Program-made: the position numbers and the translations under genes
The notes under the pieces: generated by a model
Told to the model about the DNA's origin: nothing
Database searches by the model: none
Seen by the model: the letters and a program-made list of their open reading frames with translations, nothing else
In this document: positions 206 to 29,830 of the stretch, one piece after another
How the letters are laid out: each line of letters opens with the position of its first letter
Position numbering within the stretch: position 1 is the first letter of the stretch
From: Chlamydiota bacterium
GTDB taxonomy: Bacteria > Auribacterota > JACPWU01
Reading direction: 5' to 3'
NCBI GenBank assembly: GCA_016196885.1
Contig: JACPWU010000020.1
Location: forward strand, 30,001-62,000
Length of the DNA: 32,000 nucleotides

Positions 206-249
206 TAACCCACCTCACCCCGCTTATTTAAGGGGGGAACGGGGGATTA
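206..249. repeat. GC-rich palindromic element, degenerate copy (G1)
   Basis: TAACCCACCTCACCCCGCTTATTTAAGGGGGGAACGGGGGATTA has the same TAAC...hairpin(CCCC..TTA TTT AAGGGG)...GATTA layout as the other copies. It lies in the carB-pyrK spacer. Confidence 0.5.
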
Positions 250-275
250 CCTTTCTATAGCCTTCTAACCTTGCA

Positions 276-7653: not shown

Positions 7654-8196
7654 TTAGACCTCTTTCTCTAACAAAACCACTTCGTCTCGACCATCCACCT
7701 CTGTCAAACACACTTGAATTTCTTCTTGAAGAGACGTCGGAATATTTTTCCCCACATAGTCCGGACGGATGGGAAGTTCACGATGCCCCCGATCTATGAG
7801 AACCGCCAATTGAATTCTTTCGGGGCGGCCAAAATCCATCAATTCATCAATCGCTGAGCGAATCGTTCTGCCTGAAAAAAGCACATCATCCACCAAAATG
7901 ACATTTTGATTGTTTAAATCAAATGGAAGCTCCGTCTTCTGAATTTTGATCTCACTGGCCTTTCGATCTAAATCATCCCGATAGAGGGTAATATCCAAAT
8001 ACCCCATGGGAGGGCGAACGCCCTCTACCTTGAACAAATTTTCCTGAAGCCTTTTAGCCAAATGCGTCCCCCGCGTCTGAATCCCGATCAAAACCAGATG
8101 GGACAAATCCTTATTGCGCTCCAGAATCTCATGTGAAATCCGCATCAGTGTCCTATTTAAAACCTGGGCATCCATCACTTTAGATTTTTCGATCAT
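7654..8196 (-). CDS. pyrR: bifunctional pyr operon attenuation regulator / uracil phosphoribosyltransferase PyrR
   Basis: 180 aa with PRPP-binding motif [17 protein letters not shown]. It is the first gene of the pyr operon and is preceded by a PyrR-binding-loop-like leader. Confidence 0.92.
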
Positions 8197-8218
8197 TTAA
8201 TCAACCCCATTCGGGCAT

Positions 8219-8318
8219 AAAAAAAGCCCGCTCTTTGAAGAAAGATCAGGCTTCGATAAACGAATAAAAGACCTCATTTTTTCTCCCTTTCCAGCCTCAC
8301 AGGACTGGGATTAAAAGG
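8219..8318 (-). promoter_or_regulatory. PyrR-binding attenuator leader (binding loop plus terminator hairpin and U-run)
   Basis: The minus strand reads CUUUUAAUCCCAGUCCUGUGAGGCUGGAAAGGGAG (8284-8318). This resembles the known PyrR binding-loop motif (..AGUCCAGAGAGGCU..AAGG). It is followed by the hairpin AAGCC..UCUUUCUUCAAAGA..GGCUU and a U7 run ending at 8219, 22 nt upstream of the pyrR ATG. Confidence 0.65.
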
Positions 8319-8364
8319 CAACCTTATTCATCGTATCACCTTGAAATATTTTGTCAATCTTTTT

Positions 8365-10806: not shown

Positions 10807-10822
10807 GAGACCACCTAAATAA

Positions 10823-10965
10823 TAACCCCTCCACCTCCCCTTATGGTTTGCGCCCTGCCGGGCTCCAACCACTTCCTCGTCCACCCGCTGCGACGGGTAC
10901 CCGGACTCGGTCGAAAGGGGAGAGTTTCTCCCCTCTTTAGTTCAAAGAGGGGTTGGGGGAGTTAA
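10823..10965. repeat. GC-rich palindromic element with ~80-nt GC-rich cargo (G2)
   Basis: Termini are TAACCCCTCCACCTCCCC... and ...GAGGGGTTGGGGGAGTTAA, with an internal hairpin CCCCTCTTTAGTTCAAAGAGGGG. It fills the lspA-lgt spacer. Confidence 0.8.
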
Positions 10966-14988: not shown

Positions 14989-15263
14989 TTAACCCCTCCA
15001 ACTCCCCTTAAATAAGGGGAGAGTAAAAAACTCGCTCTTTCGAGTTCCCCTCTTATTTAATTTTAATGATCCTTCGAGATCATCATGTGCGATGAAAGTT
15101 CTCCCCATTATGTTTTTTGTAGTCGCCCGATTCATCGGGCAATCCATGCAAGGGGCACACGGCAGCCCCATAAATGGGGCGACTACAAGGGTGATTTTCA
15201 TCCCCCTTTGTGCCGACCTCAGTCGGCATGAATGTTTCATAGTAAGAGGGGCTAGGGGAGTTA
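14989..15263. repeat. GC-rich palindromic element (G3), interrupted by a nested REPIN-like element
   Basis: TTAACCCCTCCAACTCCCCTTAAATAAGGGGAG...TCCCCTCTTATTTAA | insert | AGTAAGAGGGGCTAGGGGAGTTA. The uninterrupted equivalent, TCCCCTCTTATTTAAGAGGGGCTAGGGGGGTTA, is seen at 28855-28887. Confidence 0.85.
15059..15240 (+). repeat. REPIN-like element, copy A
   Basis: The core GTAGTC-GCCCGATTCATCGGGC-[23 nt]-A-GCCCCATAAATGGGGC-GACTAC spans 15119-15186. Its flanks are conserved with copy B (about 90% identity over the 5' 60 nt). Confidence 0.85.
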
Positions 15264-17288: not shown

Positions 17289-18704
17289 TTAAAACTCCAT
17301 CCTGTTCATCATCAACCCCGTCATCAACTTCGGATAAAAATCTGTGGACTTCTGGGGCATCCTCTCCTGGCCAAAGGCAACATCCTTCACCTGAAGAGGT
17401 TGAGTCGGATTTAAAAAGAAGGCCAGCTGGGACCCCCCTCGATGAACAGCCTCCAAAGCCTCACCTATTTCCCGACAGTAAGAAACGCACGTTTCATTAC
17501 GCACGGCCTCTGGATCAATCCCCAAAACTTTTTCCAAAATTAAATGGTGTAGAACCACAACGTCCAATCCACGCCAGCCCTGAGAATGCTTCTCCTTAAA
17601 GAAATCTTGGGGCACAGAACTTTTAGGATAATGCAAAAGAACAAATTCATCAGAACCATAGTAAAGACCCAAGGTATGCCCCTCTGGGTCTTCCCCTTTC
17701 ATTTTCTCTCGAATGAACTCACTGCGATGATCTTTAGGAAGCTTCAAACGCTTCGGATGAAAATCCTTTTTCAGCAATTCCTGAAGATTCATCATTTTCT
17801 CATCTGAAACATTTCTCACCAAACGATGCGTCGGCAAAATCACCAATCCCTCATCATATAAATTCACAAAGGCCATCATGGCATAATCAAAGGGCTGACT
17901 TCCATCAATACCCCCTCTTAGATAAGAGGGGTCTGGGGAGTTAATTCCATCAATACCCCCTCTTAGATAAGAGGGGTCTGGGGAGTTAATTCCTTTTACC
18001 CCCTGTATCCTCTTGGCCATCTCCTCACGAAAATTGAGTGCTGTCTCATAACGATGATGGCCATCGGCAATCAATAATTTCTTAGATTTCATCAGGGCCT
18101 GCAATTGAGGCAATACCTCTTTGTCATGAATGGCCCACAAGCGATGATCCACTTTATAATCTTTGTCCGTAAAATTAAACATGGCCTGAGTTGGCCGCTT
18201 AGAATTGAGAAGTTCCATCACCTCCTTCTTACGGTCCTCGTAGAGCATAAAAATCAATCCAAAATGAGTTTGAGTAGCCCTCAAATGATTGAGCCGATCC
18301 GCCTTGGGCTTGGAAAGCGTCTCTTCATGGGGATAAACCTCTCCCTCCCCATATTTCTGAAGGAGCCCCAAGGCAATAAAAGCCTGCCTCTTTTTTCTTT
18401 GCCCAAAAACCGTAAACTCCTGATCGTAGCAATAAATCGCGCTCTCTTGATTTTGAACAAAAACACCCGACTTCACCCATTCTTGAAGAAGCTTTCCTTG
18501 AGTCTCATAAGTCGCGGCCACTTTAGAGGCATGAGAAGAGGGCACCTCTTTTAAAATAAGGCGAACGGCATTGCATGGGTCCCGCGTCAGATAGGATTGA
18601 TAAAGCTTGGCATCAATTTTGTCATAAGGTTGAGTAATGACATTTTCTATCTTTATTTTTTTAGAATTGTAATACGTGCCTTTAAAAGGTTTAATCACTG
18701 CCAT
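17289..18704 (-). CDS. DUF1015-family protein carrying an in-frame repeat insertion
   Basis: 471 aa with the conserved LLIADGHHRYETAL and ILPTHRL motifs of DUF1015. Residues GINSPDPSYLRGGID x2 are encoded by a 2 x 45 bp tandem copy of the GC-rich repeat. Confidence 0.75.
   Translation of the reverse strand: MAVIKPFKGTYYNSKKIKIENVITQPYDKIDAKLYQSYLTRDPCNAVRLILKEVPSSHASKVAATYETQGKLLQEWVKSGVFVQNQESAIYCYDQEFTVFGQRKKRQAFIALGLLQKYGEGEVYPHEETLSKPKADRLNHLRATQTHFGLIFMLYEDRKKEVMELLNSKRPTQAMFNFTDKDYKVDHRLWAIHDKEVLPQLQALMKSKKLLIADGHHRYETALNFREEMAKRIQGVKGINSPDPSYLRGGIDGINSPDPSYLRGGIDGSQPFDYAMMAFVNLYDEGLVILPTHRLVRNVSDEKMMNLQELLKKDFHPKRLKLPKDHRSEFIREKMKGEDPEGHTLGLYYGSDEFVLLHYPKSSVPQDFFKEKHSQGWRGLDVVVLHHLILEKVLGIDPEAVRNETCVSYCREIGEALEAVHRGGSQLAFFLNPTQPLQVKDVAFGQERMPQKSTDFYPKLMTGLMMNRMEF
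17901..17990. repeat. perfect 2 x 45 bp tandem of a GC-rich half-element (G4), in-frame inside the DUF1015 CDS
   Basis: TCCATCAATACCCCCTCTTAGATAAGAGGGGTCTGGGGAGTTAAT occurs at 17901-17945 and identically at 17946-17990. Confidence 0.95.
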
Positions 18705-18735
18705 AGCATGTTTCCTTTATTCAAATAAAAACCAT

Positions 18736-18880
18736 TTAACTCCCCCAACCCCTCTTTCCCGTGGAGACTATAAAAGCTTGAAATAAGAGGGGAGTAGACT
18801 CTCCCCTTATTTCAAGTTCTTACAAGATTTTATAGTCCCCGCGGGATAGTCCCTGTGGGAAAGGGGAGTTGGAGGGGTTA
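18736..18880. repeat. GC-rich palindromic element, long nested palindrome (G5)
   Basis: Termini TTAACTCCCCCAACCCCTCTTTCCC and GGGAAAGGGGAGTTGGAGGGGTTA. Inner inverted repeats GGAGACTATAAAA/TTTTATAGTCCCC and CTTGAAATAAGAGGGGA/CTCCCCTTATTTCAAG surround the centre GTAGACT. Confidence 0.9.
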
Positions 18881-19394
18881 TTTTATTCTCCTTCAATCTG
18901 TTCCTCACCCGATTAAAAAACTCTAACGCCCTCTCATCCTTATAGTCCTGATACGTCCAGGGCCAGGGATGAAAAACTTTATCTTTAAAGTAAAGCGTTG
19001 ATTGAGCGTAAATCCCCCGCCCTAAATAAATTCGATACGTTGCAGGCTTGGTGGTTGCTAAAACAATTTTGTCTAGATCAATATAGCCCGGATCAATGTT
19101 CCAAATTCTGTTCTGGCCTGAGGCCTCTTTTAGTTCCATCTCATTGGAAGCCCATTTTAACTCTCGGATATCTTCCGGAGAAATCAATTTCTCGAAGGCA
19201 TAAAAAGAGCGAATTAAATTTGCCCCCAGTTCAGACTCATAATATTTTGTAAAATCAAAGGGGAAAGGCTCCATTTGATCTTCAAAAGGGCCCCACGCCT
19301 GCTCTAAAAGACCCTCCACCTCTTTTAATCGGGATGGCGCTACAATCACGGCCGCAAAAAGCTTGACTGGCTCAGGAAATCGAGGGGCTCCCAT
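18807..19394 (-). CDS. DUF4416-family protein with repeat-encoded C-terminal tail
   Basis: FDFTKYYESELG...NIDPGYIDLDKIVLATTK...YRIYLGRGIYAQSTL...WTYQDY matches my memory of DUF4416. The last 24 aa (ITPPTPLSHRDYPAGTIKSCKNLK) are read from the repeat at 18736-18880. Confidence 0.6.
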   Translation of the reverse strand: MGAPRFPEPVKLFAAVIVAPSRLKEVEGLLEQAWGPFEDQMEPFPFDFTKYYESELGANLIRSFYAFEKLISPEDIRELKWASNEMELKEASGQNRIWNIDPGYIDLDKIVLATTKPATYRIYLGRGIYAQSTLYFKDKVFHPWPWTYQDYKDERALEFFNRVRNRLKENKITPPTPLSHRDYPAGTIKSCKNLK

Positions 19395-20592
19395 CTTTCA
19401 TCTCTTTCTGGACACTCTTCACAATCTCTTTTTGTTTCAAAAGGCTGTCATAAGAAAATAAAACGATGCCACCTGAAGAAATTTGCAACGTCTCCTTAAA
19501 CTCCTTTTCAAAATCCTTTGGATTCTTTTCAAAAAGATAGGCCCCCAATCCAATCCAAACATTTTTTTTCTGTGAAACCCCAAGCGCCATTTTAGAAAGC
19601 ATCTGGGCCAAATGTAAGTCTAAAGTATAATTCATACTCACCACAAAATCCACTTTCTCTTCCATCGCCCATCGAGACCAATCCTGGAACGAAGAAAAAT
19701 AGCTCCTCTCGGGCCAAGGAAGTACTGCACAAGAAAGTTCTAGATACGAATTCTTTGTTCGAAGCATTTTTCTTGTCTGATCTATCAAAGAAGTAATTTG
19801 ATTGCGCCGCCACTCATCCCACAACATATGATTTTCAACGGTTCTCTCCATATGAAAAGGATTTAGACCATAAGCCTTTTGAAATCTCTCCACACTTCTT
19901 TCTCCATACCCAAATTCAAGCCCTCTTGTGAACGCATAATAAGAACCCGGCAAAAAGGGGGAAGCAAAAGGATATCGAACAAAGTCAAAATGGATCCCGT
20001 CCACGCCAGGATAGTTCTGAATCAACTCACTGACGACACTTAAGAGATAGGTCTGAACACGATCATCGCCCGGATCCAGCCAGTAGCCGTCCTCTCCATA
20101 AGAGTACCAGCCTGCCTCAGGCGCTGGAACTTGAAAGTTGTGGTAATCTAGCATGGATCTGGCCTTTTGATCGCGTGTGATAATGCCTCGACCCAGTTTC
20201 TTGACAATCGGCACATTTAAATCTTTTCCAATCCAATAAACATTAACCCAGGCATGAATTTTTAAATTCCTTCGATGGGCCTCTTCAATGGCAAAAGCCA
20301 GAGGATCCATTTTTTCTTTTTTATAAATTTCTTGGAATGGGCTCTCATCCGCTATTTGAGAGCGATACCAAGAATGATTCCTGCGATAAACCTGTAAAAA
20401 AATATCTTTTGCCCCTAAATCTTTTGCAAAATCCAACATCTGAGTGATCTTTCCACGACTGGAAAGTGTCTGATTATCAGACTCACAAGGTACCCAAAGA
20501 CCTAGAGGAGGTTTAGCTTTTTCAGCATTTAAGAAGGTAGAGAAACAATAAAAAAGGAGAAAGAAACTAAATAAGGAAGAATATTTTTTCAT
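19372..20592 (-). CDS. glycoside-hydrolase-like family 10 (GHL10/DUF187) secreted protein
   Basis: 406 aa with an N-terminal signal peptide (MKKYSSLFSFFLLFYCFSTFLNA). TIM-barrel-like motifs (IHAWVNVY, GIHFDFVRYP) are as in YngK-type GHL10 proteins. Confidence 0.6.
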   Translation of the reverse strand: MKKYSSLFSFFLLFYCFSTFLNAEKAKPPLGLWVPCESDNQTLSSRGKITQMLDFAKDLGAKDIFLQVYRRNHSWYRSQIADESPFQEIYKKEKMDPLAFAIEEAHRRNLKIHAWVNVYWIGKDLNVPIVKKLGRGIITRDQKARSMLDYHNFQVPAPEAGWYSYGEDGYWLDPGDDRVQTYLLSVVSELIQNYPGVDGIHFDFVRYPFASPFLPGSYYAFTRGLEFGYGERSVERFQKAYGLNPFHMERTVENHMLWDEWRRNQITSLIDQTRKMLRTKNSYLELSCAVLPWPERSYFSSFQDWSRWAMEEKVDFVVSMNYTLDLHLAQMLSKMALGVSQKKNVWIGLGAYLFEKNPKDFEKEFKETLQISSGGIVLFSYDSLLKQKEIVKSVQKEMKDGSPSIS

Positions 20593-20594
20593 TT

Positions 20595-21872
20595 TTAATT
20601 TTTCATTTTTAACTGCGTCAACCCAATATCCTTACGATAATGCATTTTCTCAAATTGAATTTTTTCTGCAGCTCGATACGCATTGGATCTTGCTTCAGAA
20701 AAATTTTTTCCTAAAGCGCTAATACACAGAACACGACCTCCGCTCGTTAGATAACGCCCATCCATTTTTTGAGTCCCGGCATGAAAAACAAAAACATTTT
20801 TTTCCTTAGCCAGACCGTTCAACCCCTGAATCTCATATCCGTTTTGATAAGTTCCTGGATAACCTCCCGAAACCATCACCACACCGAGCGCTACCTCATC
20901 TGAAATTTCAACTTTTATAGGAGAGAGTTTTCCTTCAGTACAGGCCAGTAAAATAGGTAAAAGATCCCCTTTCAAACGAGGAAGAATGACTTCCGTCTCA
21001 GGGTCCCCGAAGCGAACGTTGAACTCAAGCACTTGGGGTCCTTGACGGGTGAGCATCAACCCCGCATAAAGAACCCCTTGATAAGAAACACCTTCCTTGG
21101 CCATTCCCGTAAGAAGCGGATCAAAAACTTCGCGCATGATTTTTTCTTTCAGTCGAGAATCCGCTTCCGGAACAGGACTGAAAGCCCCCATTCCCCCAGT
21201 GTTAGGACCCTCGTCGTGATCGAAAACCCTCTTGTGATCCCGCGCCTCAGGAAGAGGGGCAAAGGTTTTTCCATCCGAAAAAACCAAAAAAGACATTTCT
21301 CTGCCGACCAGACATTTTTCAATCAGCACCTCGTGACCGGCATTTCCAAAAATCTTTTTCACCATCACCTCTTGAGTAAAGGAATGGGCCTCTTCAAAAT
21401 TTTCTGCAACCAAAACACCTTTTCCCGAGGCCAGACCATCGGCTTTAATCACAAGAGGGTATTGTACTTTTTTTAAATAATTCTGAGCTGCTTCAAATTC
21501 ACAGAAAACCTCATAAGGGGCTGTAGGAATCCCATACTTCTTCATCATTTTTTTAGCAAAAATCTTACTTCCCTCTAGACGGGCCGCAGATTGACAGGGA
21601 CCAAAAATTTTAAGCCCTTTTTTCTCAAAGGTATCCACGATTCCTAAGGTCAGAGGTAGTTCAGGCCCTACAACAGTAAGGTCTATTTTTTGACTAGAGG
21701 CGAAATCCAAAAGGCGGGAAATATCCTGAACAGGAATATCCACATTTTCAGCAAGATCCGAAATGCCTCCATTCCCTGGAGCGCAATAAATTTTCTTCAC
21801 CCATGGGCTTTGAGAAATTTTCCATACGAGCGCGTGCTCCCTCCCCCCACCGCCAATCACCAAAACTTTCAT
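20595..21872 (-). CDS. purD: phosphoribosylamine--glycine ligase
   Basis: 425 aa beginning MKVLVIGGGGREHAL, with an ATP-grasp core and typical PurD layout. Confidence 0.96.
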   Translation of the reverse strand: MKVLVIGGGGREHALVWKISQSPWVKKIYCAPGNGGISDLAENVDIPVQDISRLLDFASSQKIDLTVVGPELPLTLGIVDTFEKKGLKIFGPCQSAARLEGSKIFAKKMMKKYGIPTAPYEVFCEFEAAQNYLKKVQYPLVIKADGLASGKGVLVAENFEEAHSFTQEVMVKKIFGNAGHEVLIEKCLVGREMSFLVFSDGKTFAPLPEARDHKRVFDHDEGPNTGGMGAFSPVPEADSRLKEKIMREVFDPLLTGMAKEGVSYQGVLYAGLMLTRQGPQVLEFNVRFGDPETEVILPRLKGDLLPILLACTEGKLSPIKVEISDEVALGVVMVSGGYPGTYQNGYEIQGLNGLAKEKNVFVFHAGTQKMDGRYLTSGGRVLCISALGKNFSEARSNAYRAAEKIQFEKMHYRKDIGLTQLKMKN

Positions 21873-21911
21873 CTGGAAATTTCCATAATATGTTTAGATG
21901 TCATATCACTG

Positions 21912-22052
21912 CTATCGATTAGGTTTCCAAGCAACAGTTTTCGAAAGCAAATCGCAAATCAATTGATTGAGAGAAATATGATGTTTTTTAGCATAGTCCT
22001 TGCTCATCTTAAGTAGATCTTCTGGTATAGATAAAGTAATACGCTTTATCAT
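21912..22052 (-). CDS. small ribbon-helix-helix (CopG/antitoxin-like) ORF, orphan
   Basis: My own translation (not in the track) gives MIKRITLSIPEDLLKMSKDYAKKHHISLNQLICDLLSKTVAWKPNR. The beta-strand (ITLSIP) plus two short helices pattern is typical of RHH proteins. No partner toxin ORF is adjacent. Confidence 0.4.
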   Translation of the reverse strand: MIKRITLSIPEDLLKMSKDYAKKHHISLNQLICDLLSKTVAWKPNR

Positions 22053-22131
22053 ACAAAGCCTCTTTCAATTCATAAGAATAAAAGCGCACCTTGAGCAAGC
22101 TACATTGCAATGTCATTTTCCACTTCTATTA

Positions 22132-22168
22132 GTAGGTGGCCTACACCATACACCATGGGTGTACCCTG
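22132..22168. repeat. short heptamer-word/hairpin cluster just downstream of the purH stop (E7)
   Basis: The minus strand reads GGGTACACC CAT GGTGTAT GGTGTAG GCCACCTAC. It contains two GGTGTAN words, a TACACC/GGTGTA stem and a GTAGG..CCTAC stem. Confidence 0.45.
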
Positions 22169-22172
22169 GAGT

Positions 22173-23741
22173 TTAATGCCTAAAATGTCGCATACCCGTC
22201 AGAACCATGGCAAGCCCCTTTTCGTCGCAGGCTCGGATCACTTCCTCATCGCGAATGGAACCACCGGGTTGAATGACAGCCTTGATGCCAGCCTGCGCTG
22301 CCACATCAATTCCGTCTCTGAAGGGAAAGAAGGCGTCTGAGGCCATGACGGATCCTTTAGGATCTTTTTGAGATTTCATGAGGGCAATTTTAACAGAATC
22401 CACGCGGGACATTTGTCCGGCGCCCATGCCGATGGTTTCCTTGCCCTTCGCAAAAACAATGGCATTGCTGCGCACATGTTTACACACGGTCCACGCAAAA
22501 AGAAGGCCCTCCATCTCTTCTCGCGTCGGCTGGCGGTGTGTCACCCCCTTTAAATTTTCCTTTTCCAATAAAAGTCCATCTATTTCCTGAAGCAAAAGTC
22601 CTCCTCCGATCTTTTTAAAATCGTACTCGATTTGGCTTGTTGTACGCCTTCTCCCTAACGAGTCCAAAGAAAGCAGCATTAAATTTTTCTTCTTTTTAAA
22701 TTCTGATAAAGCCTCTTCTGAAAAAGCAGGAGCCACAATCGCCTCTACAAAACCTTGAGTAATCTTGACCGCCAAAGAGCCTTCTACCTTGCAATTAAAG
22801 GCAAGTACCCCTCCAAAGGCAGACACTGGATCTGTCTCAATAGACTTTGCGAATGCTTCATCTAAGGTCTTTCCGAGAGCGACACCGCAAGGATTGTTAT
22901 GTTTAATAATCACTGAGGCAGGTTCTAAAAATTCTTCCACGAGACGACAGGCCGCATCCAAATCCAGCAAATTATTAAAGGAGAGAGTTTTTCCAGATAA
23001 TTGTTTGGCAGAAACAATCCCTGAACCACTCTCCCTAAATTCTCGGTAAAGAGCAGCCTTTTGATGAGGGTTTTCCCCATACCTTAAATCATCCACCTTT
23101 TCAAATTTCAAAACCAACTCTTCGGGAAAAGAAGTGGCTGCATGGGGACGCGTTAAACCTTCCAGAAAATGAGCAATCAGCGAATCATAATGGGCCGTAT
23201 GCGCAAAGGCCTCTTGAGCCAATCTCAATCGGAAACCATCGCTCAAGGTACAATGATGCTGTTTTAACTCATCCAAAACCAAAGAATATTTTCCGGGATT
23301 CACGACGACGGCCACTGACTGATAATTCTTCGAGGAGGACCTCAGCATGGCAGGTCCTCCAATATCAATATTTTCAATGGCTTCTTCCAAACGGACGCCC
23401 TCTTTCGAAATGGTTTCTTCAAAGGGATAGAGATTCACCACCACCAAATCAATGGGAAGAATGTTATGCTCTTGCATTTGCTGAACATGAGAGGGATTGG
23501 TTCTAACCCCCAGCAATGCACCATGGACTTTGGGATGAAGCGTCTTCACACGCCCATCTAAAATTTCAGGAAATCCAGTAAAGTCTGAAATGAGTTTCAC
23601 CCGGATTCCAGCATCTTTCAAAATTTTTGCAGTCCCACCCGTAGAAATAATTTCAACGCCCAATTCATTTAAAGCAGTTGCAAATTCCGCAATCCCTTTC
23701 TTATCCGAAACACTGATAATGGCTCGCTCAATTTTTGTCAT
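22173..23741 (-). CDS. purH: bifunctional AICAR transformylase / IMP cyclohydrolase
   Basis: 522 aa with an MGS-like N-domain (ALISVSDK-type: [10 protein letters not shown]) and an AICARFT C-domain ending in MRHFRH. Confidence 0.96.
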
Positions 23742-23771
23742 GCTTTTACATGCTCCTCATTTCCACATTCA

Positions 23772-24818
23772 TTAATCCACCATCTCCACCGAAGTATTTC
23801 CTTTCACAATTTCTCCAATCACTTTTCCCTCGAATCCCTCTTTCTTAAAAAGCTTTTGAGCCTGGCCCAAATCTTTCGAAGAAAGAATAATCACAATTCC
23901 AATCCCCATATTAAACGTATGATACATATCCTCTTCAGATACATTTCCAAATTTCTGAATCAATTTAAAAATAGGTAAAACACTCCAAGCACTCTTTCGA
24001 ATACGAGCCTTACAGCCTTTGGGAAGGACACGCGGAATATTCCCGGAAAAACCTCCGCCGGTAATATGAGAAATCGCATGGATCTTTACTTTTTCATATA
24101 CCTTTAAAATGGCATTGCTGTAACAGGTATGGGGTTTTAGCAATGCCTCCCCAACGGGGCATCCCAATTCCACAATTTTTTGATCAACTGTCCAATTCAT
24201 CTTTTCGAAAAAAACTTTTCGCGCCAGAGAATAACCATTGGTGTGAAGCCCGTTGGAAGGAAGCCCTAAAATCACATCCCCTGGTTTTACTTTTGATCCA
24301 TCTATGATTCTATCTTTTTGGACGACTCCAACAAGGGTCCCCACCAAATCATAATCCCCCTCTTGATACATCCCCGGCATCTCAGCCGTCTCTCCGCCAA
24401 TCAGCGCACATCCTGCATTTAAACATCCTTGAATGAGTCCTCGAATAAGCTCATCCCCCACTTCAGGATTCAAACGACCCGTCCCAATATAATCCAAAAA
24501 GAAAAGAGGTTTGGCTCCCTGAACCACAATATCATTGGCACAATGACTGACAATATCAATCCCCACGGTGTCATGCCTATTCATCAGGCCGGCCACTTTT
24601 AATTTTGTCCCGACCCCATCCACGCTCGAAACCAAGACAGGATTTTTATATTTTTTTCTATCGAGAGAGAAAAGCCCACCAAACCCTCCAATTTTTGAAA
24701 GCACCTCAGGCCCATAAGTCTGGTGAATGGGCTTTGCAATCCCCTTCTTAAACCGGTCCAATTTTGGAATATTGACACCTGCTTCTTGATACGTGAGTGT
24801 TTGAGTCATGATATGCAT
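23772..24818 (-). CDS. purM: phosphoribosylformylglycinamidine cyclo-ligase (AIR synthase)
   Basis: 348 aa with YQEAGVNI, DGVGTK and GGETAEMPG motifs. The start could also be ATG 24809. Confidence 0.95.
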   Translation of the reverse strand: MHIMTQTLTYQEAGVNIPKLDRFKKGIAKPIHQTYGPEVLSKIGGFGGLFSLDRKKYKNPVLVSSVDGVGTKLKVAGLMNRHDTVGIDIVSHCANDIVVQGAKPLFFLDYIGTGRLNPEVGDELIRGLIQGCLNAGCALIGGETAEMPGMYQEGDYDLVGTLVGVVQKDRIIDGSKVKPGDVILGLPSNGLHTNGYSLARKVFFEKMNWTVDQKIVELGCPVGEALLKPHTCYSNAILKVYEKVKIHAISHITGGGFSGNIPRVLPKGCKARIRKSAWSVLPIFKLIQKFGNVSEEDMYHTFNMGIGIVIILSSKDLGQAQKLFKKEGFEGKVIGEIVKGNTSVEMVD

Positions 24819-24842
24819 CCTTTAAAAGAAATTTCCAATGAT

Positions 24843-25072
24843 CAATAACAAATGTCAAATAAATCTCCAATTCTCCAATGTCCAATTGGATATTGAGTCA
24901 TGGGTCATTCATTTGCTATGAAAGTGAAGCTCATTCTGTAGTCGCCCCATTTATGGGGCTGCCCGATGAATCGGGCGACTACAAAAAAAGCATGATGGGG
25001 AGAACTTTCATCGCACACGATGATCTCGAAAGATCATTAAAATTGATATTTGAAATTGGAAATTTGTCATTG
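24843..25072. repeat. AT-rich word-array palindrome (E3) wrapping REPIN-like copy B
   Basis: The left arm is CTCCAATT CTCCAATG TCCAATTG (24865-24888). The right arm is ATTGATA TTTGAAA TTGGAAA TTTGTCA (25042-25069). The outer ends CAATAACAAAT and ATTTGTCATTG are complementary. It fills the purF-purM spacer. Confidence 0.7.
24900..25044 (-). repeat. REPIN-like element, copy B (inverted relative to copy A)
   Basis: The reverse complement aligns with 15059-15240. The core GTAGTCGCCCCATTTATGGGGCTGCCCGATGAATCGGGCGACTAC spans 24938-24982. It lacks the two 23-25 nt segments present in copy A. Confidence 0.85.
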
Positions 25073-25075
25073 TCT

Positions 25076-26467
25076 CTATAAAACAATTTTCTTTCTCTTC
25101 TTTTCCATGATTAATTTATGAATACCTTCTTCTACGGGAACGGGATATTCTTTGGTGTAGCAAGCAGTGCAAAATCCAATGTCAAGACCAGACATGGCCC
25201 TCAGCATGCCCTCTTTACTTAAATAACCCAGGCTGTCCGCCTCTAAATAAGATTTGATTTCATCCAAGCTGTGAGAAGAAGCAATCAATTCGGCTGTAGA
25301 AGGAAAATCAATCCCATAATAACAGGGGCTTACATGCGGGGGGCAGCTGATTCTCACATGCACTTCCCTTGCCCCTGCGTCCCTTAAAATACGTACGCGA
25401 GAACGACTCGTCGTCCCTCTCACAATAGAGTCGTCCACGACCACCACACGTTTGCCTTCGATCACTTCCCGAATCGGATTTAATTTAATCGTAACGCCCA
25501 AGTCTCGAATGAATTGACTGGGCTGCAAGAAAGTTCTCCCCACATAATGGTTGCGGATAAATCCCATTTCCAAAGGAATGCCTGACGCTTCTGAATATCC
25601 CATGGCCGCAGAATTTCCAGAATCCGGGACCGGAATCACAACATCGGCTTGGGCAGGATGCTCTTGAGCCAATTCCACACCCAATTTCTTGCGAATAGAA
25701 TGAACACTCTTGCCCATCATCCAACTATCAGGACGCGCAAAATAAATATTTTCAAAAATGCAAAAAGAAGTTGGGGTCTCGGTAAAAGGCTTGATCGAGC
25801 GAATGAGATTTTTGCCAATAAAAACAATTTCTCCCGGCTCTACATCCCGAATAAAATTTGCCCCGATTAAATCCAACGCACAAGTTTCAGAAGCCAAGAC
25901 ATAAGCCCCCTCTTTTTCGCCGATACACAAAGGCCTAAACCCGTTTGGATCCCGGACTCCAACAATTTCATCCTCCCACAAAATGACAAGTGTATAAGCG
26001 CCTCTCACCCTTTTAAGACTGTCAACCAATGCCTCTTCTCGAGATTGGAGAGAAGACCGTGCAATCAAGTGAAGAAAAATCTCGCTGTCTACCGTGGTCT
26101 GGAAAATAGAACCCTGTTTTTCTAATTCTTCCCGCAATTCGCGAGCATTCACCAAATTTCCATTGTGCCCAATCGCCAAATCTCCCTTTGAACAACTCAC
26201 CAAAATAGGCTGGGCATTTTCAATCATGCTGGAGCCTGTGGTCGAATAACGTACATGCCCAATGGCAATAGAGCCTGTCAAATCCTTTAAGACCTTCTCG
26301 TGAAAAACCTCTCCCACCAAGCCCATGCCCTTATGCACCTTCAGGCTCTTCCCATCGCTCGTCACAATCCCAGCAGACTCCTGACCCCGATGCTGAAGCG
26401 CATAGAGTCCCAAGTAGGTCAAATGGGACGCATTCTCATTTCCATAAATCCCGAAGACACCGCACAT
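25076..26467 (-). CDS. purF: amidophosphoribosyltransferase
   Basis: The N-terminus MCGVFGIYG carries the Ntn-amidotransferase catalytic Cys. The PRTase motif VVVVDDSIVRGTT is also present. Confidence 0.96.
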   Translation of the reverse strand: MCGVFGIYGNENASHLTYLGLYALQHRGQESAGIVTSDGKSLKVHKGMGLVGEVFHEKVLKDLTGSIAIGHVRYSTTGSSMIENAQPILVSCSKGDLAIGHNGNLVNARELREELEKQGSIFQTTVDSEIFLHLIARSSLQSREEALVDSLKRVRGAYTLVILWEDEIVGVRDPNGFRPLCIGEKEGAYVLASETCALDLIGANFIRDVEPGEIVFIGKNLIRSIKPFTETPTSFCIFENIYFARPDSWMMGKSVHSIRKKLGVELAQEHPAQADVVIPVPDSGNSAAMGYSEASGIPLEMGFIRNHYVGRTFLQPSQFIRDLGVTIKLNPIREVIEGKRVVVVDDSIVRGTTSRSRVRILRDAGAREVHVRISCPPHVSPCYYGIDFPSTAELIASSHSLDEIKSYLEADSLGYLSKEGMLRAMSGLDIGFCTACYTKEYPVPVEEGIHKLIMEKKRKKIVL

Positions 26468-26487
26468 AGATTAGGATCCTTGTGTAA

Positions 26488-26575
26488 ATTAATTGAAAAT
26501 TGATAATTGAAAATAAATGAAATAATTAATCATTCCTTCATTATCAATTGTCAATTATGAATTATCAATTTTAAA
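26488..26575. repeat. AT-rich heptamer-word palindrome (E4)
   Basis: The left arm is AATTGAA AATTGAT AATTGAA AATAAAT (26491-26518). The right arm is TTATCAA TTGTCAA TTATGAA TTATCAA TTTTAAA (26541-26575). AAAATTGATAATT and AATTATCAATTTT form a perfect 13-bp pairing. It fills the purL-purF spacer. Confidence 0.8.
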
Positions 26576-26581
26576 AAAACG

Positions 26582-28813
26582 CTATACACTCATTTTCATC
26601 CCATTCTCGATCGCCGTTCTCCAAGGTTTTTCAAGCTCCTGCCATTTAGAATCAATGAGTAATTTTCCACCGTAAGAAATTTTTAACTGAGTTCCACCGA
26701 CCATACCCATTTGCACAATATTTGCATCAAAATCTTGAGCCAGTTTTATAAAATCATCTTTCAGTTGAGGCTTCACAGTCACAACCACACGCGAAGGCGA
26801 TTCACCAAAAAGAATTTCATCGCCTCTCAAGCCAGAGGTTTTCAATTCACACAAGGCACCCTTTTTCCCTTGCATCGCACATTCCGCCAAAGCCACAGCA
26901 AGCCCTCCTTCTGAAGTGTCATGCGCACTTTGAAGCCATCCCTTTTGAATCGCCTTCAGAATAAATTTCTGCAATTTCCATTCTTCGTCTAAATCAAAAG
27001 CAGGAAGTGGGCCTTTTTGAATATCTAAAACTCTCCATAAATATTCACTGCCTCCCAATCCTTTGCCAAATCCACCTGTTAAGAAAATTAAATCTCCCTC
27101 TTCCTTAAAAGAGAGGGTCGTAATATCTGATTCTTTTTGAATAAGACCCACCACACCCATCGTCGGGGTCGGAAAAATGGCTCCCTGAGGGCTTTCATTG
27201 TAAAGACTGACATTTCCACCTGTCACAGGAATCTCGAATTTTAGGCAAGCATCTCTAATGGCCTCGATTGCCTTTTGAAGCATCCAAAAACTTTCAGGCT
27301 TTAAGGGATTTCCAAAATTCAAGCAATCCGTAAGACCTACAGGCCTTCCTCCACTGATCACAACATTGCGAGCACATTCTGCCACGGCCATGAGCGTCCC
27401 TTGATAAGCATCTAAATAACAATACCGCCCATTACAGTCACTCGACATCGCCAAATATTTTCCAGCTTCTTTTAGCCTCAAAACAGCAGCATCGGAACCA
27501 GGCAAGACCACTGTGTTGTCCATCACCATGTGATCATATTGCTCATAAACCCATTGTTTGCTGGCAATATTGGGTTCGGACAAAAGTTGAAGCAATTCAT
27601 TTGTATAATTCGATTTTTCTGGGCTTAAGTCAGGAAGCCGATTCACTTCATCCAAATAAGCAGGCCTTTTTGCGGGCCTCTTATAAAGAGGGGCTTCATC
27701 GGTCAATGCCTTAGAGGGAACATCTGCAACCACTTTGCCTTTTTCCTTCACGACCATTCGACCGGTATCTGTGACATGGCCCACCAATGCCGCGTGAAGA
27801 CCCCATTTCTCAAAAGTTTTCAAGACCTCATCTTCTTTCCCCTTTTGGGCAATGACCAGCATTCTTTCCTGAGATTCAGAAAGCATGATTTCATAAGGAT
27901 TCATCCCCGTCTCACGTCTGGGGACTAGCTCTACATCGATTTCAATTCCAGAGTTTCCTCTAGAAGCTGTTTCACAAGTGGAACACGTCAGGCCTGCTGC
28001 GCCCATGTCCTGTACCCCAACGACGCAACCGGGTTTCTTAAAAAGCTCAAGACAGGCCTCCACTAAAAGCTTTTCCATAAAGGGATCCGCCGTTTGAACA
28101 CTGGGCCGATCCTCATGGGATTTTTCGGTCAATTCATCCGATGCAAAAGTAGCCCCATGAATCCCATCACGCCCCGTCGATGAGCCCACATAAAAAACAG
28201 GATTACCCATTCCCACTGCTTTCCCTTTAACCAAATCCTTTTTCCGAGCGATTCCTAAGCAAAACACATTCACAAGCGGATTGGTTGAATAAGATTCCTC
28301 AAAATAGACCTCCCCTCCCACCGTAGGAATCCCAATACAATTACCGTAATGCGCAATCCCTGAAACAACACCCGTCATCAAAGAACGGGTCTTGGCCTCA
28401 TCTAATCTTCCAAATCTGAGAGAATCCATAAGCGCAATGGGTCGAGCGCCCATGGTAAAAATATCTCGAATAATTCCGCCCACGCCTGTCGCAGCACCCT
28501 GAAAAGGTTCAATGGCTGAAGGATGATTATGGCTTTCCATTTTAAAAACGATGCACCAGTCATCCCCAATGTCTATCGCTCCTGCATTTTCCTCTCCTGC
28601 CTTAATTAAAATACCAGAGCCTGTGGTCGGTAATTTCTTCAGTTCTAATTTAGAATTCTTATAACCGCAATGTTCACTCCACATCACAGAAAAAAGACCT
28701 AATTCCAGAAAATTAGGCTCTCTCCCCAAAAAAACTTTAATGCGGTCATATTCTTCAAGGGTTAGACCGTGCTGCGTAATAATATCTTCTGTCATCATCA
28801 TTAAGGAACTCAT
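26582..28813 (-). CDS. purL: phosphoribosylformylglycinamidine synthase subunit PurL (FGAM synthase II)
   Basis: 743 aa with duplicated AIRS-like domains ([21 protein letters not shown]). It follows purQ and purS. Confidence 0.96.
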
Positions 28814-28814
28814 C

Positions 28815-28887
28815 TTAACCCCCCTAGCCCCCCTTAAAATAAGGGGGGAACTACTCCCCTCTTATTTAAGAGGGGCTAGGGGGGTTA
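28815..28887. repeat. GC-rich palindromic element, minimal 73-bp form (G6)
   Basis: TTAACCCCCCTAGCCCCCCTTAAAATAAGGGGGGAACTACTCCCCTCTTATTTAAGAGGGGCTAGGGGGGTTA. The outer arms are perfect complements and there are two inner hairpins. It fills the purQ-purL spacer to within 1 nt of the purL ATG. Confidence 0.92.
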
Positions 28888-29577
28888 TTTCATTATTGCT
28901 TTTATAATGGATTCAAAAATTTTTCTTCCATCTTCTGATCCTAAAATTTGCTCACTCGCCCTTTCGGGATGAGGCATCATGCCCAGCACATTACCCTCTT
29001 CATTGATAATGCCGGCAATATTTTCAAGTGAACCATTGGGATTTGAATCTCGCGTGACCTCGCCTTGTTCATCACAATAACGAAAAACAATTTGCCCCTG
29101 CGCATTCATTTTCTTAAGCACATCTGGCTCGACAAAATAATTTCCTTCTCCATGGGCCACGGGAATTTTTAAAACCTCAGTTTTTTGATATTGTTCGGTG
29201 AATCGCGTCTTCACATTTTCGGGGCGCAAATAAACATATTTACATACAAACTTGAGGGAGGAATTTCTCATCATGGCCCCTGGCAGAAGCCCGGCTTCGA
29301 GCAAAATCTGAAAACCATTGCAAATGCCCAAAACGAGGCCCCCTTTTTTGGCAAATGGCTGAACAGAATTCATCACAGGAGAAAACCGTGCAATCGCGCC
29401 CGTCCGTAAATAATCTCCATAGGAAAATCCCCCAGGCAAAATCACACAATCAAAGTGAGAGATATCCGATTCCTGATGCCAGACATACTCCACCGGCTGC
29501 TTAAGCACATTTTTAATCACATGAAAGCAGTCCGCATCACAATTGGAGCCTGGAAAAACCACCACAGCGAATTTCAT
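28885..29577 (-). CDS. purQ: phosphoribosylformylglycinamidine synthase glutaminase subunit PurQ
   Basis: [14 protein letters not shown]..., GICNGFQ and MMPHPER form the class-I GATase triad. I start at ATG 29577, 4 nt after the purS stop. The track's extra 22 aa overlap purS. Confidence 0.94.
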
Positions 29578-29581
29578 TCTA

Positions 29582-29830
29582 TTAAACCCTTTCCAACTCA
29601 AAGCGATATTGCTCAATAATGGGATTGACCAAAAGCTTCTCACAAATGGACTTCACCTTTTCACTCGCCTCTTTTTCATCACGAGCATCCAAAGCAATCT
29701 CGACATATTTTCCAATCCGAACATCTTGAACGCCCGCATATTGTAGGGTTTTTAAAGCATTTTGAACGGTCAATCCCTGAGGGTCTGAAACCCCTTTTTT
29801 CAATGTCACTTCAATCTTGGCTTTGATCAT
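29582..29830 (-). CDS. purS: phosphoribosylformylglycinamidine synthase subunit PurS
   Basis: [19 protein letters not shown] is the typical PurS N-terminus. ATG 29830 is preceded by GGAG at 7-8 nt. The track start at 29842 has no SD. Confidence 0.9.

What the first reader, a model, noticed from the sequence alone, without database searches (positions are those of the whole stretch)
15059..15240. REPIN-like doublet of GTAG-headed hairpins with compensatory differences, and no RAYT in view
The core is GTAGTC-[GCCCGA TTCA TCGGGC]-...-[GCCCCA TAAA TGGGGC]-GACTAC. This is two inverted units, each a GTAG head followed by a 6-bp GC stem and a 4-nt loop. That is the layout described for REP sequences and for REP doublets (REPINs) mobilised by RAYT (IS200/IS605-like TnpA) enzymes.

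The two units differ at stem positions in a compensatory way (GA..TC versus CA..TG), so each hairpin stays perfect. Both differences are preserved in the second genomic copy at 24938-24982.

About 60 nt 5' of the core is ~90% identical between the two copies (AATTTTAATGATCYTTCGAGATCATCRTGTGCGATGAAAGTTCTCCCCAT...; the 3' flank is less well conserved) and is partly self-complementary (GCGATGAAAGT / ACTTTCATAGC). The full unit is therefore a 145-182 nt imperfect palindrome. Translating it produces the spurious peptides VVAPFMGLP.../MNRATTK seen in the ORF track.
Basis: partly seen in the sequence, partly recalled or inferred. Interest (0 to 1): 0.7.

Follow-up and report, generated by a model that had tools for sequence, protein, structure and literature searches.

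The report
REP hairpin doublet (REPIN-type mobile element)
The two repeats are copies of a small non-coding mobile element built around a pair of inverted "GTAG + hairpin" REP sequences, a known kind of bacterial repeat moved by a RAYT transposase encoded elsewhere; this is an ordinary though well-preserved example.

Summary
Four GTAG-headed hairpins (6-bp stem, 4-nt loop) form two inverted doublets at 15119-15186 and 24938-24982; 0.04 are expected by chance.

They belong to a very large REP family, GTAG-YY-GCCNNA-TTYA-TNNGGC. I found it on more than 120 metagenome contigs, 15 phage contigs, and Chloroflexi and Stahlbacteria MAGs. All six stem pairs covary. The loop reads TTYA from the GTAG side. 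Of 69 distinct doublets, 68 pair two different stems, as here.

In five unrelated loci a ~137-aa RAYT gene is flanked on both sides by these hairpins. Its best solved relative is E. coli TnpA-REP (4ER8).

The window ("Chlamydiae bacterium" MAG) encodes no RAYT, and I could not search the rest of the genome.

The true units are 15060-15242 (183 nt) and 24916-25043 (128 nt): a ~60-nt arm, the doublet, and a short right arm ending TTTCATAG. Copy 1 splits the apex of another palindromic repeat; removing it restores that hairpin (31/33). Four relatives have purF-purM spacers of 36-82 nt, against 257 nt here, and no such hairpins in 58 kb.

Verdict: a REPIN-type element, a new member of a known kind, modest interest.

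The parts
15060..15242 (+). Copy 1, the whole inserted unit (183 nt): left arm, REP A, spacer, REP B, right arm.
   Evidence: The ends are set in two independent ways that agree. Homology with copy 2 starts at ATTTTAATG and ends at TTTCATAG. The unit also interrupts a host palindrome: removing 15060-15244 restores CCCCTCTTATTTAAGAGGGGCTAGGGGAGTTA, which is 31/33 identical to the intact copy at 28856-28888. The single-stranded DNA fold has z = -5.0.
15060..15118 (+). Left arm of copy 1 (59 nt). It holds a small hairpin at about 15066-15083, then GCGATGAAAGT and a T-run.
   Evidence: 93% identical to 24985-25044 (I1). It was not found in any other fetched locus or in viral contigs.
15119..15140 (+). 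REP A: GTAG-TC-GCCCGA-TTCA-TCGGGC.
15141..15164 (.). 24-nt spacer between the two REPs of copy 1. Copy 2 has 1 nt here.
15165..15186 (-). REP B: GTAG-TC-GCCCCA-TTTA-TGGGGC, read on the minus strand.
15187..15242 (+). Right arm of copy 1. It includes the hairpin TGCCGACCTCAGTCGGCA (about 15211-15228) and the conserved end TTTCATAG (15235-15242).
15058..15059 (.). TA directly left of copy 1. A second TA lies directly right at 15243-15244. The intact host hairpin has a single TA.
14990..15263 (.). Host unit of a second, unrelated palindromic repeat family (TAACCCC...GGGGTTA). Its second hairpin is split at the apex by copy 1.
   Evidence: (D1, D11, I3, I7).
24916..25043 (-). Copy 2, the whole unit (128 nt), in the opposite orientation to copy 1. 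It is flanked by CA on both sides when read on the minus strand.
   Evidence: The single-stranded DNA fold is a long stem enclosing a three-way junction, z = -6.6.
24938..24959 (+). REP B of copy 2.
24961..24982 (-). REP A of copy 2.
24983..25043 (-). Left arm of copy 2 (61 nt).
   Evidence: (I1).

Best explanation
Both loci hold a non-autonomous REPIN-type element. Its core is a head-to-head heterodimer of two GTAG-tagged REP hairpins. A lineage-specific ~60-nt arm and a short right arm surround the core.

Shown here:
- The hairpins belong to a very large REP family with strong stem covariation and a strand-specific TTYA loop.
- A dedicated clade of ~137-aa RAYT (TnpA-REP-like HUH/Y1) genes is flanked by exactly these hairpins in other genomes.
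- Both window copies are discrete insertions that are absent from the corresponding sites of relatives, or that split another repeat.

Inferred from published work on TnpA-REP (PMC8266576, PMC3479197):
- A RAYT encoded elsewhere in this genome, or once present in it, binds each GTAG hairpin on single-stranded DNA.
- It uses the GTAG tag to choose dinucleotide cleavage sites on either side.
- It excises and re-joins the segment into another single-stranded site. For copy 1 that site would be the apical loop of another palindrome.

The two stems differ so that the doublet folds as two hairpins rather than as one long perfect palindrome.

Both copies lie 15-35 nt downstream of a stop codon (proC, purF) inside same-strand gene arrays, so they are probably co-transcribed. 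They may incidentally affect mRNA 3' stability.
For: Family and structure:
- 4 heads found against 0.04 expected.
- 357 perfect hairpins sit 6 nt after GTAG, against 2-9 for eight decoy tetramers. Loops are TTTA (212) and TTCA (102), against TAAA (2) and TGAA (2). There are 95 convergent pairs, 20 direct and 10 divergent.
- all 6 stem pairs show double changes, and 0 of 500 shuffles reached the observed values.
- 68 of 69 distinct doublets are heterodimers.

Link to RAYT:
- RAYT genes in L213, L152, L261/262, L263 and L264 are flanked on both sides by these REPs.
- these proteins hit PF01797, 4ER8 TnpA-REP (E = 9.6e-8, with the HUH motif and the YIxxNP tyrosine aligned) and NF047646.
- Marinomonas group-3 REP is GTAG + 2 nt + a perfect stem + a TTTA loop. 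Loop positions 1, 2 and 4 are essential and position 3 is free, which matches the TTYA seen here.

Insertion:
- removing copy 1 restores the host hairpin (31/33).
- the purF-purM spacer is 36-82 nt in four relatives and 257 nt here. No heads occur in 58 kb of the relatives.
Against: - No RAYT is encoded in the 32 kb, and the rest of the MAG could not be searched.
- Only two copies are known in this genome.
- The ~60-nt arm has no match anywhere else. The unit is therefore known only from n = 2, and its asymmetry is not the textbook symmetric REPIN.
- The flanking dinucleotide pairs (TA..TA, CA..CA) resemble a 2-bp target duplication. IS200/IS605-type single-strand transposition does not normally produce one.
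- Transposition of REPINs by a RAYT in vivo has not been demonstrated for any system, as far as the papers read here state.
Confidence: 0.8

Rival explanations
1. The 128-183-nt unit is a MITE moved by a different transposase that makes a 2-bp target duplication, for example of the IS630/Tc1 type. It only happens to carry a REP doublet inside.
For:: copy 1 is flanked by TA..TA and the intact host site has one TA. Copy 2 is flanked by CA..CA. Only the whole unit, not the bare doublet, is shared between the two copies.
Against: The unit has no terminal inverted repeats: ATTTTAATG against CTATGAAAG matches 5 of 9 in AT-rich sequence (read). No transposase is encoded in the window. CA is not an IS630 target. 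Other subfamilies of the same REP also carry lineage-specific asymmetric arms next to the doublet, so arms appear to be a regular feature of this REP family. RAYTs are reported to cut at CT/CA dinucleotides at some distance from the hairpin (PMC8266576), which could mimic a duplication.
Confidence: 0.1
2. It is a structured RNA element, such as a small RNA, a 3' stabiliser or a terminator, conserved for an RNA function rather than a mobile DNA.
For: The fold is strong (z = -6.6 and -5.0). Stems covary. Both copies lie just downstream of stop codons in same-strand gene arrays.
Against: The two copies have opposite orientations while all neighbouring genes are on the minus strand. No Rfam family matches even at E = 10. 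No terminator-like T-run follows the GTAG hairpins. The loop is TTYA relative to each hairpin's own GTAG strand, so one transcript would carry one REP and one inverted REP. The family also occurs as direct tandem arrays and inside coding sequence. The elements are absent from orthologous sites of relatives.
Confidence: 0.06
3. It is a gene-less remnant of an IS200/IS605 insertion sequence (a PATE-like element): left-end and right-end hairpins with the transposase deleted.
For: The element has subterminal hairpins, no terminal inverted repeats and asymmetric ends. The associated enzymes belong to the same Y1/HUH superfamily.
Against: In IS200/IS605 both end hairpins and their guide tetranucleotides lie on the same strand (established knowledge; PMC8266576 describes the guide model). 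Here the two GTAG tags are on opposite strands. The matching proteins are RAYT-type (NF047646, and 4ER8 is the best solved relative). No TnpB or TnpA remnant lies between or beside the hairpins.
Confidence: 0.03

Closest known systems
GTAG-tagged REP families and their head-to-head (HH) dimers (Di Nocera, De Gregorio, Rocco 2013, PMC3733652)
   Same: An unpaired 5' GTAG tag, a 6-bp GC-rich stem and a short loop. Subfamilies differ by complementary stem changes. HH dimers with the GTAG outside predominate. Heterodimers are common. Most lie downstream of genes, some inside genes, and RAYT genes are flanked by the repeats. A dinucleotide between tag and stem is described for GTAG-1 and GTAG-2. 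GTAG REPs were already reported in the PVC superphylum, Chloroflexi and Planctomycetes.
   Different: I could not check whether this exact consensus (GTAG-YY-GCCNNA-TTYA) is one of the 24 listed families, because Figure 1 is not held. Here the dimer sits inside a longer unit with a ~60-nt one-sided arm.
REPINs of Pseudomonas fluorescens SBW25 (Bertels and Rainey 2011, PMC3116915; PMC3337134)
   Same: Two inverted REPs move as one unit. Doublets outnumber other arrangements. The element is non-autonomous and the RAYT is encoded elsewhere in the genome.
   Different: Different sequence and phylum, a very short spacer (1-24 nt) and an asymmetric arm. Copy number in this genome is unknown. The family here is shared across several phyla and phages, whereas REPIN-RAYT systems are described as mostly vertically inherited (bioRxiv 10.1101/2022.05.22.493013).
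Group-3 REPtron of Marinomonas sp. MWYL1 (Corneloup et al. 2021, PMC8266576)
   Same: GTAG, then 2 nt, then a perfect short stem, then a 4-nt TTTA loop in which positions 1, 2 and 4 are required and position 3 is free. This matches the TTYA seen in 314 of 357 hairpins here. The enzyme cuts at CT and CA dinucleotides 5' or 3' of the hairpin.
   Different: The stem is 5 bp there and 6 bp here. The host is a gammaproteobacterium. No biochemistry exists for the clade found here.
E. coli REP/BIME and TnpA-REP (PDB 4ER8; PMC3479197)
   Same: 4ER8 is the best solved relative of the RAYT that is flanked by these hairpins (E = 9.6e-8). The HUH motif and the catalytic-tyrosine motif align. GTAG is the recognition tag.
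   Different: E. coli REPs have a bulged, imperfect stem that is needed for activity. The stems here are perfect.

Membership tests
GTAG-type REP | A short (20-40 nt) stem-loop with an unpaired GTAG tag at one end. | tested here: met
   four 22-nt units of GTAG + TC + a 6-bp stem + a 4-nt loop.
GTAG-type REP | Subfamilies related by complementary (compensatory) stem changes. | tested here: met
   all 6 pairs show changes on both sides, 45 cells against 13.4 in shuffles (0 of 500 shuffles as high), and slid controls reach 17-42% paired against 87%.
GTAG-type REP | Repeated many times, mostly outside genes, in the host genome. | tested here: inconclusive
   Four REPs in 32 kb, all intergenic. 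The family is abundant in other genomes. Short-read contigs L120 and L256 break inside or next to the elements.
GTAG-type REP | A RAYT gene in the same genome flanked by the same REPs (a REPtron). | not testable with these tools
   No RAYT in the window. Across the family the link holds in 5 of 5 loci examined.
REPIN | Two REPs in inverted orientation, close together, conserved as one unit between copies. | tested here: met
   The same order (arm, A, B) occurs in both copies. The spacer differs (24 nt against 1 nt).
REPIN | Inverted doublets over-represented relative to other arrangements. | tested here: met
   95 convergent pairs, 20 direct and 10 divergent; the commonest spacer is 6 nt. This was measured on the family in metagenome loci, not in this genome.
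REPIN | Presence/absence differences consistent with movement as a unit. | tested here: met
   removing the unit restores the host palindrome (31/33); four relatives lack it at purF-purM (36-82 nt against 257 nt).
RAYT (for the protein flanked by these REPs in L213, = P0122) | A Y1/HUH fold with the HUH motif and catalytic tyrosine, closer to TnpA-REP than to IS200 TnpA. | tested here: met
   PF01797 at 33 bits against a cutoff of 23. The only significant PDB hit is 4ER8 (E = 9.6e-8), and no IS608 or ISDra2 TnpA chain reached E = 1. HLH aligns with HMH, and YIKNNP with YIYINP.
RAYT (for the protein flanked by these REPs in L213, = P0122) | Passes the curated NCBIfam model REP_Tyr_transpos (NF047646). 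| tested here: inconclusive
   74.9 bits against a cutoff of 80, so just below. The L141 protein scores 134.7. IMG names several homologues 'REP element-mobilizing transposase RayT'.
Intrinsic terminator | A GC-rich hairpin followed by a T-run on the transcribed strand. | tested here: not met
   no site at the GTAG hairpins. The T-run precedes REP A instead of following it.
Any Rfam RNA family | A match to a curated covariance model. | tested here: not met
   no match comes near a gathering score.
TIR-type MITE | Terminal inverted repeats plus a fixed-length target duplication. | tested here: not met
   No TIRs (5 of 9 matches at the termini, read). The 2-bp flanking identity (TA/TA, CA/CA) is present, but only in n = 2.

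The most novel reading that the evidence does not exclude
This REP-RAYT lineage (a ~137-aa RAYT with GTAG-YY-6bp-TTYA hairpins, almost always paired as heterodimers) is spread across several bacterial phyla and tailed phages with nearly identical hairpin sequence. That would imply horizontal spread, not the strictly vertical inheritance described for REPIN-RAYT systems.

On this reading its mobile unit is the REP heterodimer plus a lineage-specific ~60-nt arm. The unit integrates at YA dinucleotides in single-stranded apical loops of other palindromes. The window would then preserve two recent insertion junctions of such an event, in a genome whose close relatives lack the family.
Probability: 0.25. 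Interest if true: 0.55.

Novelty: new member of a known kind. Interest (0 to 1): 0.3.

Why it matters
REPs and REPINs are well described, so the classification itself is routine. Three points have some value.

1. It documents a REP/RAYT lineage in poorly studied phyla: a Chlamydiota-labelled MAG, Brocadiales, Zixibacteria, WOR-3 and Chloroflexi. The lineage also occurs in phage genomes.
2. Copy 1 offers a clean insertion junction, a REPIN-type unit sitting in the apex of another palindrome with matching flanking dinucleotides. Such junctions constrain the still unresolved integration step of RAYT-mediated movement.
3. The near-absolute heterodimer rule (68 of 69) and the TTYA loop rule are simple, testable recognition and stability constraints.

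For genome annotation, these units also generate spurious ORFs (for example 24878-25081 and 14989-15240) and break short-read assemblies.

Tried and rejected
- My first public-genome scan used GTAGTCGCCC-N8-GGGC, which was too loose. It returned 119 or more mostly chance hits in high-GC genomes and used the only genome-contig scan. Only L038 and L087 were real family members. Because of this I could not scan the source MAG for copies or for a RAYT.
- Exact look-ups of window proteins returned only short Logan contigs. The 96.6-kb source contig was not shown, and two look-ups found nothing.
- A protein search with the translated element (SEAHSVVAPFMGLPDESGDYKKSMMGRTFIAHDDLERSLKLIFEIGN), meant to find other copies through spurious ORFs, found no candidate.
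- The arm motif GTGCGATGAAAGTTCTCCCCAT has no match in viral contigs or in any fetched locus.
- Rfam at E = 10 returned only noise.
- The terminator scan found no site at the GTAG hairpins.
- I considered and rejected integron attC sites (no cassette array, and the R/L box pattern does not fit) and CRISPR (the 28-33-nt periods in L127 and L236 are too short and lack spacers).
- I checked whether the second repeat family fits the GGGGWSAS motif reported for TIRs that flank RAYT-like genes (PMC3733652). It does not.

Full report
**1. The observation**

A degenerate search for GTAGTCGCCC-N8-GGGC finds exactly four sites in the 32 kb. They lie at 15119-15140 (+), 15165-15186 (-), 24938-24959 (+) and 24961-24982 (-). 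The chance expectation is 0.04. Allowing three mismatches adds none.

- Hairpin A is GCCCGA-TTCA-TCGGGC and hairpin B is GCCCCA-TTTA-TGGGGC.
- They differ by a G:C to C:G swap, so both stay perfect, and both copies keep that difference.
- The 60 nt on the A side are 93% identical between the copies (I1).
- The two copies are in opposite orientation, while every sizeable gene around them is on the minus strand.

**2. Genomic context**

The window is a housekeeping chromosome segment. It carries ileS, proC, yggS, purD/H/M/F/L, lspA and lgt.

Its PurF is 100% identical to a protein NCBI labels "MAG: Chlamydiae bacterium", on a 96.6-kb contig. The next relatives, at 83-85% identity, carry the same label. 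More distant hits are Omnitrophica and Verrucomicrobia.

Copy 1 lies between the proC stop and the ileS start. Copy 2 lies between the purF stop and the purM start.

**3. True boundaries of the units**

Homology between the copies starts sharply at ATTTTAATGATC and ends at TTTCATAG.

For copy 1 these ends coincide with a break in a different repeat.
- That repeat's intact form at 28816-28887 reads TAACCCCCCTAG-[CCCCCCTTAAAATAAGGGGGG]-AACTA-[CTCCCCTCTTATTTAAGAGGGG]-CTAGGGGGGTTA.
- At copy 1 the sequence reads ...CCCCTCTTATT-TA-[15060-15242]-TA-AGAGGGGCTAGGGGAGTTA.
- Deleting the unit plus one TA restores a hairpin that is 31/33 identical to the intact one.

Copy 2, read on the minus strand, is flanked by CA on both sides.

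The units are therefore 15060-15242 (183 nt) and 24916-25043 (128 nt). Copy 1 is longer because it has a 24-nt spacer instead of 1 nt between the hairpins. It also has about 42 extra nt after GACTAC, including a small hairpin.

Folded as single-stranded DNA, copy 2 forms three parts (z = -6.6):
- a small hairpin in the outer arm;
- a long stem, GCGATGAAAGT paired with ACTTTCATAGC;
- a three-way junction made of the GTAGTC/GACTAC stem and the two REP hairpins.

Copy 1 folds with z = -5.0.

**4. Related sequences elsewhere**

It also hit 15 viral contigs. From the earlier loose genome scan, two real members emerged: a Candidatus Stahlbacteria MAG (L038) and a Chloroflexi groundwater MAG (L087).

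In about 1 Mb of these loci:
- Perfect 6-bp/4-nt hairpins placed 6 nt after GTAG number 357, against 2-9 for eight decoy tetramers. About 171 of the 357 were selected by the search pattern; the rest were not.
- Read from the GTAG side, the loop is TTTA (212) or TTCA (102), and almost never the complement (TAAA 2, TGAA 2).
- Convergent pairs with GTAG outside are the main arrangement (95). There are 20 direct and 10 divergent pairs. The commonest spacer is 6 nt.

Partner hairpins were extracted without any pairing requirement and then kept if their first six bases fitted GTAG[TC][TC]. They show compensatory changes at all six stem pairs, with 45 double-change cells against 13.4 in shuffles (0 of 500 as high). 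Slid controls fall to 17-42% paired, against 87%.

Of 69 distinct doublets, 68 combine two different stems. Di Nocera et al. discuss such heterodimers as protection against long perfect palindromes (PMC3733652).

**5. The enzyme**

Clustering all ORFs in the fetched loci produced a Y1_Tnp (PF01797) cluster.

- In L213 a 137-aa gene (1016-1426) has five GTAG hairpins within 190 nt upstream and three just downstream. Its TAG stop lies inside a GTAG tag.
- This protein is identical to one from a Planctomycetes MAG. It has thousands of homologues in Brocadiales, Zixibacteria, WOR-3 and Anaerolineae, some of which IMG names "REP element-mobilizing transposase RayT".
- Its only significant solved relative is E. 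coli TnpA-REP (4ER8, E = 9.6e-8), with the HUH and YIxxNP motifs aligned.
- It scores 74.9 bits on NCBIfam REP_Tyr_transpos, just under the cutoff of 80.
- Three further homologues fetched independently are each flanked on both sides by clusters of the same hairpin type: Brocadiales L261/262, Zixibacteria L263, and L264 from a 5.8-Mb contig. In L261 the hairpins occur nowhere else in the 20 kb.
- L152 is a further case, with hairpins even inside the RAYT reading frame.

This is the defining REPtron arrangement (PMC3733652).

**6. Fit to published biochemistry**

For the group-3 REPtron of Marinomonas, the REP is GTAG + 2 nt + a perfect stem + the loop TTTA. Loop positions 1, 2 and 4 are essential and position 3 is free. 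The enzyme recognises the REP but not its complement. It cuts at CT or CA dinucleotides 5' or 3' of the hairpin, selected through the GTAG tag (PMC8266576).

The TTYA loop rule and the strand specificity seen here are what that recognition mode predicts. The YA dinucleotides at both ends of each window unit are compatible with such cleavage sites. With two copies, however, they cannot be told apart from a 2-bp target duplication.

**7. Evidence for insertion**

Besides the split palindrome at copy 1, four relatives (83-85% PurF identity) give a comparison. They are L257, L259/260, L265 and L266, 58 kb in all. L259 and L265 are syntenic from purL to beyond the DUF1015 gene; L257 and L266 cover shorter stretches.

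- They contain no GTAG hairpin of this type.
- Where the site is present (L259/260, L265, L266), the purF-purM spacer is 36-82 nt, against 257 nt in the window.
- The L257 contig ends 174 nt after purF.
- The relatives also lack the second repeat family.

**8. What could not be settled**

No RAYT is encoded in the window. Whether the MAG has one, and how many copies of the unit it holds, is unknown. The ~60-nt arm has no match elsewhere.

Other subfamilies of the same REP also have lineage-specific one-sided arms. An example is GGCTGTTTAAAAAT-[doublet]-~65 nt-TTAAACAGCC. An arm next to the doublet is therefore typical of this family.

**9. Rivals**

- An RNA element is unlikely. The copies have opposite orientations, there is no Rfam match and no terminator signature, each hairpin's loop follows its own strand, and relatives lack the elements.
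- A DDE-type MITE is weakly suggested by the 2-bp flanks, but the unit has no terminal inverted repeats.
- An IS200/IS605 remnant does not fit, because the two guide tags are on opposite strands.

**10. Verdict**

This is a REPIN-type unit of a widespread GTAG REP family with an identified cognate RAYT clade: a new member of a known kind. Interest is modest. The more unusual aspects are the nested insertion junction, the heterodimer rule, and the cross-phylum and phage distribution.

Noticed in passing
window 218-264, 10821-10965, 14990-15263, 17900-18000, 18716-18892, 28816-28887: A second, unrelated palindromic repeat family. It has an outer stem, TAACCCC..CTAG paired with CTAG..GGGGTTA, that encloses two C/G-rich hairpins such as CCCCTCTTATTTAAGAGGGG. 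Several units carry variable inserts in their hairpin loops: 72 nt at 10821-10965, and 28 and ~55 nt at 18716-18892. Copy 1 of the GTAG element sits in one such loop. The family is absent from the four relatives' loci. What moves it is unknown.
   Followed up: partly
window 17900-17989 (inside ORF 17289-18704, minus strand): A perfect 2 x 45-nt tandem of the second family's right arm forms an in-frame 32-aa insertion (GINSPDPSYLRGGIDG, twice) in a conserved DUF1015 gene. The orthologue in relative L259 lacks it.
   Followed up: yes
L241-L255 (IMG/VR contigs): Fifteen viral contigs carry the same GTAG REP doublets. They encode a portal protein and a major head protein by PHROGs, so tailed phages carry these REPs. 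About half share the same flanks, which suggests one ancestral insertion in a phage lineage.
   Followed up: partly
L152 4400-5200: A RAYT gene whose reading frame runs through REP hairpins inserted in frame (peptides such as VVAQFIEQDKS...PDKSGNY). It is unclear whether the enzyme is still functional.
   Followed up: no
L127 105-225; L236 7696-7772: Direct head-to-tail arrays of single GTAG hairpins with periods of 33 nt (at least 5 units) and 28 nt. This arrangement differs from the usual inverted doublet.
   Followed up: no
L141 2600-3500: A RAYT that clearly passes NF047646 (134.7 bits) is flanked by a different tagged repeat, GTAGGTC...GACCTAC. That repeat encloses a CCCCCGA-TTCA-TCGGGGG hairpin, so the loop is the same but the stem and tag context differ.
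   Followed up: no
L120 end (= window ~25022) and L256 end (= window ~15213): Short-read (Logan) contigs of the same organism, from runs SRR12113387 and SRR12113417, stop inside or at the edge of the two elements. This is consistent with the elements being repeated, or hard to assemble, in that genome.
   Followed up: partly
window 8217-8322 (-): A PyrR binding site (RF00515, 60.2 bits against a gathering score of 54) lies upstream of the 180-aa ORF 7654-8196. It is the only Rfam match in the window.
   Followed up: no
window 19372-29643: A near-complete de novo purine operon (purD, purH, purM, purF, purL) occurs in a MAG labelled Chlamydiae. Beyond close relatives that carry the same label (83-85% PurF identity), the next homologues, at about 60-67%, are labelled Omnitrophica, Verrucomicrobia and Auribacterota, so the taxonomic label may be loose.
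   Followed up: no
window 15141-15164: The 24-nt spacer of copy 1 (AATCCATGCAAGGGGCACACGGCA) contains AAGGGGCAC. The same string occurs in a GTAGGGGCACG-type hairpin inserted in the spacer of the doublet in L160. It may be a remnant of another REP type nested in the spacer.
   Followed up: no
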